This document shows positions 5,968 to 7,708 of a DNA stretch of 64,000 nt, one piece after another. The translations under genes and the position numbers were made by a program. Under the pieces are notes generated by a model. That model was not told where the DNA came from, ran no database searches, and saw only the letters and a list, made by a program, of their open reading frames with translations. The stretch's first letter is position 1; each line of letters opens with the position of its first letter. Where the stretch lies: positions 1 to 64,000 of the forward strand of contig NZ_JAQNDL010000004.1 in the NCBI RefSeq assembly GCF_028368995.1. The letters run 5' to 3'. The stretch comes from Nannocystis bainbridge. GTDB lineage: Bacteria; Myxococcota_A; Polyangia; Nannocystales; Nannocystaceae.

Positions 5968-6848
5968 CGGAGCTCCAGACGACCGTTCGGCCGGTCACGC
6001 CAGCCGACTTCCCGCTCGACGATGCGACCCGCGCGCAGATCTTCTATCGCCTGCGCCGCTACGCGTCGCTGACCTACGTCAAGCGCTGCACGCTGCTGCT
6101 GCAGAAGTTCATCGCCGGGTTCGACGCGTGGGCCCGCAAGTCGGGGCCCGATCACACGCAGTTCGCCCGCAAGGCGCTGCAGTCGCTGTACCCGCCGCTG
6201 GCGGCGCTCGAGCAGGTGCCGGGCCTCCTGCTGAGCAATCAAAAGACGCGGGCCTACGACGCGCTGAGCCAGGCCGGCTTCCTCACCGAGCTGCTCGGCC
6301 AGGGCTTCGACGGCGGCATGCGCTGGGAGCCGTTCGGCTACAACTACGGCGAGCGGCCGAGCGTCGGTCTGTTCGCGTGGGCCGAGAAGGCGCTCGAGAT
6401 GGCGGCGCAGATGCAGCGCACCGCCGAGGCCGGGTGGTCGCTGTCGCTGATGGCCCTGCAGCGCCCGGCGCCGCCGCACGCCCACCTCGAGCCGATGCCG
6501 CGGGCCGACGGCATCGTCATCGATCCGGACGAGGACGTGCCCGTCACCGGCGTGTGGGTGCCGCTCGACGTGCCGTACGGCTGCCCCAACTTCCTGGTCG
6601 AGGGCGTGCCGGCGCCGCTGCTGTCCGTCGAGACCCAGCGCGTCGACGCCGAGGGCTACCCCGGCGACCCCGAGAACCCGCCGATCGCCGCGCGCACCGA
6701 CTACGTGTACGAGGAGCTGCCGACCCGCTGGCAGCTGGCGTGGGACGACATCCGCTACCGCGCCGGCGTCGAGATCGACGAGCCCGAGTTCCTCGACGAC
6801 GAGACCGAACTGCCGGTGTGGCCGCCGGCCCACCCGCCGTCGCCATGA
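5964..6848 (+). CDS. Hypothetical protein, candidate immunity protein.
   Basis: GTG start at 5964 overlapping the effector stop. 294 aa with no recognisable domain. Confidence 0.5.
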   Translation: MTELQTTVRPVTPADFPLDDATRAQIFYRLRRYASLTYVKRCTLLLQKFIAGFDAWARKSGPDHTQFARKALQSLYPPLAALEQVPGLLLSNQKTRAYDALSQAGFLTELLGQGFDGGMRWEPFGYNYGERPSVGLFAWAEKALEMAAQMQRTAEAGWSLSLMALQRPAPPHAHLEPMPRADGIVIDPDEDVPVTGVWVPLDVPYGCPNFLVEGVPAPLLSVETQRVDAEGYPGDPENPPIAARTDYVYEELPTRWQLAWDDIRYRAGVEIDEPEFLDDETELPVWPPAHPPSP

Positions 6849-7708
6849 CCACGAGCGCCGGCATCACCCGCCCGCGCCTCGTCGTCGAGGTGCTGTGGGG
6901 GCCCGAGCAGGGCAAGAAGGCGGTGATCGCCGCCGGCGGCGCGATCACGGTCGGGCGCGACGGCGCGGCCGGTCTGTGCCTGGCCCACGACGAGGCGCTG
7001 GCGCCGGTCCACTTCCAGCTGGCGTGGGACGGCCAGGTCGCGGCGCTGCAGTCGCTGGTGAACGAAGAGACATGTCTCGACGGACAGCCGGTGCGCGAGG
7101 GCAGCAGCGGCCACGGCGGCTGGGTGCGCGCGGGCCGGTCGGACCTGGCGCTGGCGATCGAGCGCCACACGCCGCTCGAGACGCCGCCGACGCCGGAGAT
7201 GCTGGCCGCGGCGGCGCCGGCGGCCCTGGCCCTCAAGGCCGAGCCGGGCCGGCTGTTCGCGGTCGTCGACGCCTCGCGCGACGAGCGGGTGCGGGTGCTC
7301 CTGCGCGAGTCGCCGGCCCGCTACCGCTCGCTGTACGACGGCTGGCAGGGCGACGCGCTGGCCGAGAGCGCGCCGTACCTGGTCGAGCTCGGGCCGCCGC
7401 ACCCGCAGCTCGTCGACGACCTGGTGATCGAGGGCTGGCACACCGACGACGCGCGGCGCGACGGCGACGGCGGCTGGGCGATCTTCCTCTCGGTGCCCGA
7501 CGCGCGCGAGTTCGAGGCGGTGCGCCGCCACCTGCGCAAGTTCCTCATGGTCGACCTGCACCGCGAGAAGGTCTACTTCCGCTTCTACGACCCCCGCGTG
7601 CTGCAGGCGTTCGTGCCGACCTGCAACGCGGGCGAGCGGCTCGAGTTCCTCGCCGACATGGCGTGGCACGTCACCTGTCCGCAAGGACTGCTGACGTTCC
7701 GCGCCTGA
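6845..7708 (+). CDS. FHA-like domain fused to a DUF4123 T6SS effector adaptor (Tap/Tec family).
   Basis: N-terminus ITVGRDGAAGLCLAHD..HFQLAWDG..NEETCLDGQPV is FHA-like. C-terminus FAVVDASRDERV..YLVEL..GWAIFLSVPDA..FRFYDPRVLQAFVP matches DUF4123. 4-bp overlap with the upstream gene. Confidence 0.75.
   Translation: MTTSAGITRPRLVVEVLWGPEQGKKAVIAAGGAITVGRDGAAGLCLAHDEALAPVHFQLAWDGQVAALQSLVNEETCLDGQPVREGSSGHGGWVRAGRSDLALAIERHTPLETPPTPEMLAAAAPAALALKAEPGRLFAVVDASRDERVRVLLRESPARYRSLYDGWQGDALAESAPYLVELGPPHPQLVDDLVIEGWHTDDARRDGDGGWAIFLSVPDAREFEAVRRHLRKFLMVDLHREKVYFRFYDPRVLQAFVPTCNAGERLEFLADMAWHVTCPQGLLTFRA

What the first reader, a model, noticed from the sequence alone, without database searches (positions are those of the whole stretch)
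6845..7708. FHA-like domain fused to a DUF4123 T6SS effector chaperone
DUF4123 (Tap/Tec) adaptors are normally stand-alone proteins. Here the N-terminal ~90 aa look FHA-like (GR..H..N spacing: ITVGRDG..PVHFQLAWDG..VNEETCLDGQPV), although the usual Ser of the pSer/pThr pocket appears to be replaced. FHA modules otherwise act in T6SS as Fha/TagH phospho-Thr readers downstream of PpkA. A fused FHA suggests that phosphorylation gates effector loading, and the window carries three Ser/Thr-kinase-like genes.
Basis: partly seen in the sequence, partly recalled or inferred. Interest (0 to 1): 0.65.

Follow-up and report, generated by a model that had tools for sequence, protein, structure and literature searches.

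The report
FHA-fold T6SS adaptor, cargo missing
The gene does encode a type VI secretion "adaptor" (DUF4123) with an FHA-fold domain at its N-terminus, but this fusion is already documented and widespread in myxobacteria. Its phospho-threonine pocket is degenerate, and the toxin module that follows it in relatives is missing here, so phosphorylation-gated loading is unlikely.

Summary

The fusion is not new. Two papers (2015, 2020) list FHA as the commonest extra domain on DUF4123 proteins. I found at least 120 full-length relatives, and all 79 genomic loci examined span both domains. Most are Myxococcota, and most follow vgrG-PAAR.

The phospho-gating idea is not supported.
- Of the GR / SxxH / NG motifs the window protein keeps only G, R and H. 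Ser is Ala and NG is EE.
- Asn is absent in 118/118 family members.
- Arg is Ser in orthologs of 77-83% identity.
- The canonical pThr loops are the most variable part of the domain.
- Kinases lie 13 kb or more away, and only 9/79 related loci have one within 8 kb.

The protein also lacks the helical C-lobe of classical Tap/Tla adaptors. I read the FHA domain as a phospho-independent second lobe.

In N. radixulma and two more distant relatives the adaptor is followed by a small conserved protein and a Tle1-like lipase. That ~2.1 kb is absent here.

Verdict: new member of a known but uncharacterised kind. Modest interest.

The parts
6845..7708 (+). FHA-DUF4123 adaptor gene (287 aa). Its start overlaps the upstream stop codon (ATGA).
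6878..7159 (+). FHA-fold beta-sandwich, residues 12-105. It carries G37-R38, A53-x-x-H56 (Ser lost) and V72-N-E-E-T76 (the S-x-N-G-T loop is degenerate).
7193..7705 (+). A helix (residues 117-132) followed by the alpha/beta DUF4123 lobe (136-286). The Pfam match covers residues 137-265 (nt 7253-7639). No C-terminal helical lobe follows.
1718..3919 (+). vgrG. The true start is probably about 28 codons further in, judging from the N. punicea gene call.
   Evidence: Phage_GPD 3.5e-86, Gp5_trimer_C, Phage_base_V..
3935..4561 (+). PAAR protein of 208 aa, with a C-terminal extension of about 110 aa.
   Evidence: PAAR_motif 4.4e-23..
4558..5967 (+). 469-aa toxin, with a helical, hydrophobic N-terminal half and a C-terminal domain of Tne2/Tse6-like NADase fold.
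5964..6848 (+). Imm71/Imm72-like immunity protein of 294 aa.
   Evidence: Imm72 1.1e-8, Imm71 3.7e-5. The pairing with the toxin is conserved.
7702..7712 (.). Junction where about 2.1 kb present in N. radixulma has no counterpart here. That stretch holds a small 'MFKI' protein and a Tle1-like lipase.
   Evidence: window 7712-7934 aligns to L008 10922-11145, and alignment of the adaptor 3' end stops at L008 8833..

Best explanation
The gene encodes a cytoplasmic T6SS adaptor (chaperone) of the DUF4123 (Tap/Tec/Tla) class with a non-classical second lobe.

Shown:
- Residues 117-287 form the alpha/beta DUF4123 lobe.
- Residues 12-105 form an FHA-fold beta-sandwich.
- The helical C-terminal lobe of classical adaptors is absent.
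- The gene is the last, translationally coupled member of an orphan vgrG-PAAR-toxin-immunity-adaptor operon in a Nannocystis genome. The 469-aa toxin is 100% identical to an N. bainbridge protein.

Inferred:
- The DUF4123 lobe docks on the spike (VgrG C-terminus or PAAR), as shown for Tla1, Tap6 and Tap3.
- The FHA-fold domain acts as a phospho-independent protein-binding lobe. It would do the partner- or cargo-holding job of the missing helical lobe.
- It would use the same loop face that canonical FHA domains use for pThr peptides. In this family that face is hypervariable and lacks the phosphate ligands.

Inferred from synteny:
- The cognate cargo of this adaptor lineage is the module encoded just downstream in relatives. 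That module is a ~135-aa conserved 'MFKI' protein plus a variable effector.
- In the nearest relatives with a downstream module, the effector is a Tle1-like phospholipase.
- In this genome, and in N. punicea, N. pusilla and strain RBIL2, that ~2.1-kb module is missing.
- The adaptor therefore now has no cis-encoded downstream cargo. It stays intact under purifying selection, so it probably still serves either the upstream NADase-like toxin or a cargo encoded elsewhere.
For: Domains and fold.

No C-lobe. The model ends with beta-strands at residue 286. Only 138 of 290 residues of Tap3 (9r8g_B) align. Tap3, Tla1 and Tap6 are described as bilobed, with an N-terminal DUF4123 lobe contacting VgrG and a helical C-lobe contacting the effector (PMC12909789, PMC13133936).

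Degenerate pocket, across 118 family members:
- Gly 118/118
- Arg 85/118
- Ser 53/118
- His 92/118
- Asn 0/118
The window protein has G, R, A, H, E-E. Orthologs P0003, P0005 and P0006 have R38S. The motif definition and a non-pThr FHA precedent in a secretion system (MxiG-N) come from PMC3162421.

Variability. The canonical pThr loops have a mean entropy of 2.53 bits, against 1.50 for strands and 1.75 for other loops.

Synteny over 79 loci:
- PAAR lies within 300 nt upstream in 49 and within 3.6 kb in 71.
- VgrG lies upstream in 66.
- The small 'MFKI' domain lies directly downstream in 33.

Downstream module. It is found in L008, L084 and L085. The L008 copy is a Tle1-like lipase at PF09994 E 9.6e-19, and one search lists a PF09994 hit on the L084 copy. 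It is absent from the window. The adaptor shows weak similarity to the NCBIfam Tla1 model, the Tle1 chaperone, at E 5.7e-7.

Selection. The ORF is intact in all five orthologous loci. dN/dS is 0.42-0.59, similar to neighbouring genes.
Against: - No binding data exist for any FHA-DUF4123 protein.
- I could not inspect model coordinates or predict complexes. The roles assigned to the two lobes are therefore inference.
- 48/118 relatives keep both Arg and Ser, so pThr binding cannot be excluded for those more distant members.
- The upstream toxin and the adaptor appear to share contigs in about 10 homolog pairs, down to ~45% identity. This was inferred from matching longest-contig lengths and confirmed for three. 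The genes also overlap stop to start. The toxin may therefore be a genuine client, which would make 'orphan' too strong.
- dN/dS near 0.5 is only moderate constraint. dS is probably compressed in a 72% GC genome.
- Whether the Tle1 module was lost here or gained in N. radixulma rests on only two outgroup loci.
Confidence: 0.55

Rival explanations
1. The N-terminal FHA domain reads a phospho-threonine made by a Ser/Thr kinase, so that effector loading on the spike is gated by phosphorylation.
For: - The fold is a true FHA fold. The closest solved relatives are pThr readers: FhaA, GarA and Rv1747.
- G37, R38 and H56 are present.
- 48/118 relatives keep both Arg and Ser, and many score on PF00498 itself.
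- T6SS is known to use Fha/PpkA phospho-signalling (established knowledge). A myxobacterial T6SS core cluster next to a relative does carry an Fha gene.
- The window has 2-3 kinase-like genes.
Against: - In the window protein the phosphate-contacting Ser is Ala and the NG motif is EE.
- Asn is absent in 118/118 relatives.
- Arg is replaced by Ser in orthologs of 77-83% identity.
- The pThr loops are the least conserved part of the domain.
- The kinases are 13 kb or more away.
- No PP2C or T6SS core gene was found among the window ORFs scanned.
- A kinase lies within 8 kb in only 9/79 loci, and at no fixed position.
- Myxobacterial genomes carry very many eukaryote-like kinases (my own knowledge), so 2-3 in 64 kb means little.
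Confidence: 0.06
2. The adaptor is not orphaned. Its client here is the upstream 469-aa NADase-like toxin. It would stabilise that toxin's hydrophobic helical N-terminal half and hand it to the PAAR or VgrG tip. This resembles what IdsC (DUF4123) does for the membrane protein IdsD, or Eag chaperones do for Tse6.
For: - The order toxin-immunity-adaptor, with 4-nt overlaps, is conserved in all Nannocystis orthologs and in L084 and L085.
- About 10 adaptor-toxin homolog pairs appear to share contigs, judged by matching longest-contig lengths.
- The adaptor has stayed intact in four species that lack the lipase module, with dN/dS 0.42-0.59.
- Toxin residues 1-110 are the conserved part: 80-95% identical, against 53-55% for the rest in N. 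radixulma.
- FHA-domain identity drops most (75%) in the ortholog whose toxin diverged.
- IdsC precedent: bioRxiv 10.1101/213785, abstract only.
Against: - Toxin and Imm71/72 pairs occur with no DUF4123 gene in the 7-kb flanks, in a Yersinia mollaretii T6SS cluster and in L087.
- In the literature and in 33 or more loci here, the cargo lies downstream of the adaptor (PMC12909789).
- The domain-divergence signal rests on one genome.
Confidence: 0.28
3. The gene is a decaying relic of a lost adaptor-lipase module and no longer has a function.
For: - The downstream cargo module is missing.
- The FHA pocket residues drift among close orthologs, with R38 changing to S.
- dN/dS is higher than for VgrG: 0.42-0.59 against 0.28-0.34.
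Against: - The ORF is full-length in the window and in four other Nannocystis genomes.
- All four DUF4123 motifs are intact.
- dN/dS is below 1 and similar to the toxin and immunity genes.
- AlphaFold confidence is very high, at pLDDT 92.
Confidence: 0.1

Closest known systems
DUF4123 T6SS adaptors: Tla1 (PA3293), Tap-1/VasW (V. cholerae), Tap3 (P. putida, PDB 9r8g), Tap6/Tap14, TecT
   Same: - PF13503 domain with all four signature motifs.
- Encoded in a vgrG island.
- Weak NCBIfam similarity to Tla1.
- Relatives precede Tle1-like lipases, as Tla1 does.
   Different: - No helical C-terminal lobe, which is the effector-binding lobe in Tla1, Tap6 and Tap3.
- An FHA-fold domain sits at the N-terminus instead.
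- In most related loci (71 of 79) a stand-alone PAAR gene lies between vgrG and the adaptor.
- About 40% of related loci have a small conserved protein directly after the adaptor.
TecT / co-TecT / PAAR4 / TseT system of P. aeruginosa (Burkinshaw 2018; recalled from my own knowledge, cited in PMC12909789)
   Same: A DUF4123 chaperone that works with a PAAR protein and a second small accessory protein to load a cargo effector.
   Different: - co-TecT is a DUF2875 protein and is unrelated to the 'MFKI' protein.
- TecT has no FHA domain.
- The analogy rests on gene order only.
Cytoplasmic FHA-like domains of T3SS ring proteins (MxiG, YscD, PrgH; PF16697)
   Same: - FHA fold with incomplete GR / SxxH / NG motifs.
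- Used as a phospho-independent interaction module in a secretion machine. MxiG-N does not bind pThr (PMC3162421).
- PF16697 is the only Pfam FHA-clan model that hits the window protein.
   Different: - Those domains are fused to a transmembrane helix and a periplasmic ring domain. They form 24-mer rings.
T6SS Fha/TagH (the pThr reader downstream of PpkA)
   Same: An FHA fold in a T6SS context.
   Different: - Fha carries a T6SS_FHA_C domain and canonical pocket residues.
- It is a core or accessory regulator, not an adaptor.
- Sequence similarity to a myxobacterial Fha is insignificant (BLASTP E 0.11).
M. tuberculosis FhaA (Rv0020c) FHA domain, PDB 3po8/3poa
   Different: FhaA has GR, SRRH and STNGT intact and binds pThr. 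The window protein has GR, APVH and VNEET.

Membership tests
DUF4123 (Tap/Tec/Tla T6SS adaptors) | PF13503 match above the gathering score | tested here: met
   84.7 bits against a cut-off of 25.8, E 7.1e-24, residues 137-265.
DUF4123 (Tap/Tec/Tla T6SS adaptors) | Signature motifs YLLLD, SPYxxLVxL, HLRxLLxV, LFRFYDPxVL (PMC4557670) | tested here: met
   FAVVD, APYLVEL, HLRKFLMV and YFRFYDPRVL are all present in the translation.
DUF4123 (Tap/Tec/Tla T6SS adaptors) | Alpha/beta N-lobe fold as in Tap3 | tested here: met
   [not shown]
DUF4123 (Tap/Tec/Tla T6SS adaptors) | Bilobed architecture with a helical C-terminal effector-binding lobe | tested here: not met
   The protein ends at residue 287, inside the alpha/beta lobe. 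No helical bundle is present. The lobe description comes from PMC12909789 and PMC13133936.
DUF4123 (Tap/Tec/Tla T6SS adaptors) | Encoded next to vgrG/PAAR and effector genes | tested here: met
   The window operon. Among 79 related loci, 71 have PAAR and 66 have VgrG upstream.
DUF4123 (Tap/Tec/Tla T6SS adaptors) | Binds the spike and the effector, is required for effector secretion, and is not itself secreted | not testable with these tools
   Needs two-hybrid, pull-down and secretion assays.
Canonical pThr-binding FHA domain (PF00498) | FHA beta-sandwich fold | tested here: met
   [not shown]
Canonical pThr-binding FHA domain (PF00498) | PF00498 match above the gathering score | tested here: not met
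   No PF00498 hit at E up to 10. The related PF16697 scores 29.7 bits, below its 33.2 cut-off. Many distant homologs do carry PF00498.
Canonical pThr-binding FHA domain (PF00498) | [quoted passage not shown] | tested here: met
   G37-R38 are present. R38 is Ser in orthologs P0003, P0005 and P0006, and Arg occurs in only 85/118 family members.
Canonical pThr-binding FHA domain (PF00498) | SxxH motif before strand 5 | tested here: not met
   A53-P-V-H56. In the family the Ser position reads Ala 56 and Ser 53 of 118.
Canonical pThr-binding FHA domain (PF00498) | NG motif before strand 7 | tested here: not met
   E74-E75 at the positions aligned to the N-G of FhaA 'STNGT'. Asn occurs in 0/118 family members.
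Canonical pThr-binding FHA domain (PF00498) | Binds phospho-threonine peptides | not testable with these tools
   Needs ITC, fluorescence polarisation or NMR with pThr peptides.
T6SS Fha/TagH | FHA domain followed by a T6SS_FHA_C domain, encoded in the core cluster | tested here: not met
   No PF20232 hit. No T6SS core gene turned up among the window ORFs scanned.
T3SS SctD-type FHA-like domain (PF16697) | PF16697 above cut-off, followed by a TM helix and a periplasmic ring domain | tested here: not met
   29.7 to 32.7 bits, below the 33.2 cut-off. The domain is followed by DUF4123, not by a TM or ring domain.

The most novel reading that the evidence does not exclude
FHA-DUF4123 proteins could be a distinct, PAAR-linked class of T6SS adaptor. 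In it, an FHA-fold lobe with hypervariable former pThr loops replaces the helical cargo lobe. It would work with a small conserved 'MFKI' co-adaptor to load diverse toxins, including Tle1-like lipases and unknown 560-630-aa proteins.

A further step is also not excluded. In members that keep GR and SxxH, recognition could still be phospho-dependent. That would give a first case of kinase-gated effector loading.
Probability: 0.3. Interest if true: 0.6.

Novelty: new member of a known kind. Interest (0 to 1): 0.3.

Why it matters
Adaptors decide which toxins a T6SS spike can fire. Only the classical bilobed DUF4123 type has been studied structurally, in Tap3 and Tla1 (2026).

This family is large. 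I found at least 120 full-length relatives, all 79 genomic loci examined span both domains, and there are often several copies per myxobacterial genome. It shows that the DUF4123 docking lobe can be combined with a completely different second lobe.

If the FHA face is the cargo-recognition surface, it would be a compact, evolvable specificity module. It would also add a phospho-independent FHA domain in a secretion system to the MxiG, YscD and PrgH examples.

For this particular window the practical message is cautionary. The fusion is neither new nor likely to be phospho-regulated, and its usual cargo is not encoded here.

Tried and rejected
- Complex prediction. I built a toxin-linker-adaptor chimera alignment (A2) to predict the complex. 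No complex could be modelled.
- Origin of the FHA domain. I tested whether it derives from the T6SS core Fha. BLASTP against a myxobacterial Fha gave E 0.11, so there is no support.
- Fusion to an Rhs effector. I looked for the small 'MFKI' domain fused to the Rhs effector in Archangium (L002). The first ~30 residues look similar by eye, but the HMM did not recover it. I dropped the claim.
- Remnants of the lost module. I searched the window for the small protein or the lipase. tblastn at 1e-3 and blastn found none. Six-frame translation of 7700-8110 shows no ORF.
- Operon end. The terminator and promoter scan of 7600-8200 found nothing. That is uninformative in 72% GC DNA.
- Toxin and small protein. 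Pfam, NCBIfam and PDB sequence searches found nothing significant. Only the fold search identified the toxin domain.
- Model geometry. Model coordinates are not exposed, so I could not inspect pocket geometry or the FHA/DUF4123 interface.
- Family size. The count of 514 relatives in genome contigs comes from patterns in the DUF4123 half. It may include proteins without FHA. Only the best 79 were verified as two-domain.
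Full report
WHAT IS THERE

The window is 72% GC. Coding frames were therefore picked by third-position GC and homology.

The left end carries one co-directional, tightly packed gene set:
- vgrG at 1718-3919 (Phage_GPD E 3.5e-86).
- A PAAR protein at 3935-4561 (E 4.4e-23). It is 208 aa, with a C-terminal extension of about 110 aa.
- A 469-aa protein at 4558-5967.
- An Imm71/Imm72-like protein at 5964-6848.
- The target gene at 6845-7708.

The last four genes overlap stop to start by 4 nt. An R2K ATP-grasp gene lies upstream on the other strand. 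A HAMP histidine kinase follows 365 nt downstream.

The 469-aa protein is 100% identical to a hypothetical protein of Nannocystis bainbridge. The whole locus is syntenic in N. punicea, N. pusilla, N. radixulma and strain RBIL2.

No T6SS core gene, PP2C phosphatase or other FHA gene turned up among the window ORFs I scanned. This is an orphan vgrG island.

Residues 137-265 match Pfam DUF4123 at 84.7 bits, against a cut-off of 25.8. All four published DUF4123 motifs are present (PMC4557670).

PF00498 does not hit the N-terminus. The FHA-clan model PF16697 scores 29.7-32.7 bits, just under its 33.2 cut-off. On its own that would be marginal. Two further results make it secure:
- A profile of 118 full-length homologs hits solved FHA domains. 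M. tuberculosis FhaA scores E 1.7e-12, followed by GarA, Rv1747 and Rad53.

IT IS NOT A NEW ARCHITECTURE

Unterweger et al. [quoted passage not shown] Liu et al. 2020 found that 2.7% of DUF4123 proteins are multidomain, with FHA the commonest addition at 1.1% (PMC7714669).

My own searches agree:
- The protein search gave 399 clusters at E up to 1e-3. The best 120 all cover at least 85% of the query. Many carry PF00498 itself. Some are already named 'FHA domain-containing protein'.
- A scan of one genome per species returned 514 relatives. The best 79 all span both domains.
- These are mostly Myxococcota: Nannocystis, Archangium, Hyalangium, Cystobacter, Polyangium, Chondromyces, Sorangium, Minicystis and Byssovorax.
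- A few are Acidobacteriota, and one is from Isosphaeraceae.
- Several genomes carry more than one copy.

I found no experimental work on any member.

THE PHOSPHO-THREONINE POCKET IS DEGENERATE

FHA domains are defined by three motifs needed for pThr binding: a GR dipeptide, SxxH and NG (PMC3162421).

The profile alignment to FhaA places IGR...SRRH...STNGT against VGR...APVH...VNEET. The window protein therefore keeps G37, R38 and H56. It has Ala53 for the phosphate-contacting Ser. It has Val72 and Glu74-Glu75 in place of S-x-N-G.

Across the 118 homologs:
- Gly is invariant.
- Arg is present in 85.
- Ser is present in 53.
- His is present in 92.
- Asn is present in none.

Within the window's own ortholog group, the supposedly essential Arg is Ser in N. 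pusilla and two other proteins of 77-83% identity.

Positional entropy shows that the three canonical peptide-binding loops (38-43, 50-55, 72-75) are the most variable part of the domain. They average 2.53 bits, against 1.50 for strands and 1.75 for other loops. A conserved phosphate reader would show the opposite pattern.

The family-specific invariant residues lie elsewhere: K25, D49, W61-D62-G63, G91-x-W93-x-R-A-G97, E106 and T109-P110.

KINASES ARE NOT LINKED

The window has three kinase-like genes:
- A clear Pkinase gene at 20994-23357(-).
- A clear Pkinase gene at 33182-34357(+).
- A degenerate kinase-like stretch at about 41411-42094(-).

They are 13-34 kb from the adaptor, among unrelated genes.

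In 79 related loci of about 16.8 kb each, a kinase is detectable in only 9, and at no constant position. One short contig (L041) has a kinase-like ORF directly after the adaptor. That is more likely a cargo than a regulator.

Myxobacteria are known for very large kinomes (my own knowledge). Two or three kinases in 64 kb therefore carry no weight.

WHAT THE FAMILY CONTEXT SAYS

The adaptor almost always follows vgrG and a stand-alone PAAR gene:
- PAAR lies within 300 nt upstream in 49 of 79 loci.
- PAAR lies within 3.6 kb upstream in 71 of 79.
- VgrG lies upstream in 66, out of 68 loci that have enough upstream sequence.

Directly downstream, in 33 loci, lies a ~107-residue domain that begins MF(K/R)(I/V)..EQ. 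It occurs as a ~130-aa protein or as a tandem pair. It has no Pfam or NCBIfam match. A variable large protein follows it.

Classical adaptors are bilobed. The DUF4123 alpha/beta lobe contacts the VgrG C-terminus. A helical C-lobe, plus loops, holds the effector. This was shown for Tap3, Tla1 and Tap6 (PMC12909789, PMC13133936).

The window protein has the first lobe only. It ends in beta-strands at residue 286. The FHA domain is therefore the obvious candidate for the second lobe. The pTM of 0.89 suggests a fixed arrangement of the two domains.

This part is inference. I could not model complexes or read model coordinates.

THE USUAL CARGO IS MISSING HERE

Three relatives show a longer operon:
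- Two relatives of the whole operon, at 46-51% adaptor identity (L084, L085).
- The N. radixulma ortholog (L008).

All three read vgrG-PAAR-toxin-immunity-adaptor-MFKI protein-Tle1-like phospholipase. The L008 lipase scores PF09994 E 9.6e-19. L084 runs on into tssE/F/G, an Fha gene and tssJ.

In the window, DNA homology with N. radixulma stops at the adaptor stop codon. It resumes about 2.1 kb later in L008, at window 7712. Neither the MFKI protein nor the lipase is detectable anywhere in the 64 kb.

The two outgroups favour a loss in the lineage of N. bainbridge, N. punicea, N. pusilla and RBIL2.

The adaptor also shows weak similarity to the NCBIfam model of Tla1, the Tle1 chaperone (E 5.7e-7). 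This fits a lipase-adaptor ancestry.

THE UPSTREAM TOXIN

Its model (pLDDT 83) has two parts:
- A helical N-terminal half, residues 3-216, with hydrophobic, highly conserved segments.

One homolog is fused to Hcp (P0195). That supports T6SS delivery.

The toxin-Imm71/72 pair occurs in a Yersinia mollaretii T6SS cluster directly after vgrG. It also occurs in another locus (L087). No DUF4123 gene lies within the 7-kb flanks examined in either case. This toxin family therefore does not generally need such an adaptor.

Several points keep the toxin open as a client:
- The toxin and the adaptor appear to share contigs in about ten homolog pairs. This is judged from matching longest-contig lengths and was confirmed for three.
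- The adaptor is intact in all five orthologous loci, with dN/dS 0.42-0.59. That is like its neighbours, against 0.28-0.34 for VgrG.
- In N. radixulma the toxin body and the immunity protein have diverged to 49-55% identity, while the toxin N-terminus stays at 80%. There the FHA domain is the more diverged half of the adaptor: 75% against 84%.

VERDICT

The architecture is real, but it is already recorded and common in this phylum.

The proposed mechanism of phospho-gated loading is contradicted for this protein by the pocket residues, by their drift in orthologs and by the lack of any kinase linkage.

My best reading (confidence about 0.55) has three parts:
- It is a DUF4123 spike-docking adaptor whose second lobe is a phospho-independent FHA-fold domain.
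- It belongs to a PAAR-linked adaptor-MFKI-effector module.
- The downstream lipase cargo of that module is missing in this genome.

Whether it now serves the upstream NADase-like toxin (about 0.28) or is drifting (about 0.1) needs experiments.

Novelty: a new member of a known, uncharacterised kind.

Noticed in passing
[not shown]
   Followed up: partly
L008 8841-9248; L084 10825-11238; about 33 further loci directly after the adaptor gene: A conserved ~107-residue domain begins MF(K/R)(I/V)..EQ. It occurs singly or as a tandem pair and has no Pfam or NCBIfam match. It lies immediately downstream of FHA-DUF4123 genes and upstream of variable effectors. It is a candidate co-adaptor. It is absent from the window.
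   Followed up: partly
window 7702-7712 versus L008 8834-10921: A clean indel of about 2.1 kb. N. radixulma carries the MFKI gene, a Tle1-like lipase (PF09994) and lipase fragments at 9282-9666, right after the adaptor. The window, N. punicea, N. pusilla and RBIL2 do not.
   Followed up: yes
L008, L084, L085 downstream of the Tle1-like gene: No obvious immunity gene follows the Tle1-like lipase in these loci. The next genes are a histidine kinase, tssE and hcp respectively. How the producer is protected remains unexplained.
   Followed up: no
window 3935-4561 (+), residues 96-208: The PAAR protein has a C-terminal extension of about 110 aa containing a beta-rich segment (YEVELHDGTILKGKLDAEGRARIEGVP). 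The extension is 81-82% conserved in orthologs, against 96-99% for the PAAR core. It may be a docking domain for the toxin or the adaptor.
   Followed up: no
window 29612-32416 (-): A 934-aa ORF has Major Vault Protein shoulder and repeat domains (MVP_shoulder 1.6e-8, Vault_3 5.8e-8). This is a bacterial vault-protein homolog.
   Followed up: no
window 40973-42898 (-), about 41411-42094: A degenerate kinase-like stretch gives tblastn E 9.6e-6 to the window's own Pkinase gene. It has no Pfam hit at 1e-4. It is possibly a pseudokinase.
   Followed up: no
L041 1654-2643: On one short Myxococcales contig, a Ser/Thr-kinase-like ORF lies directly downstream of an FHA-DUF4123 gene, in the position usually taken by the cargo. 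This is a single case.
   Followed up: no
L007 (N. punicea) about 9500-9900: The intergenic gap after the adaptor holds a run of near-identical repeats of about 48 nt. They are seen as repeated 'HMLEETCLHPRGRRAL' in translation.
   Followed up: no
window 28257-29324 (+): A DUF4041 plus T5orf172/MUG113 (GIY-YIG-like) protein sits in a region of lower GC (0.66-0.68). It may be a mobile or defence-related gene.
   Followed up: no
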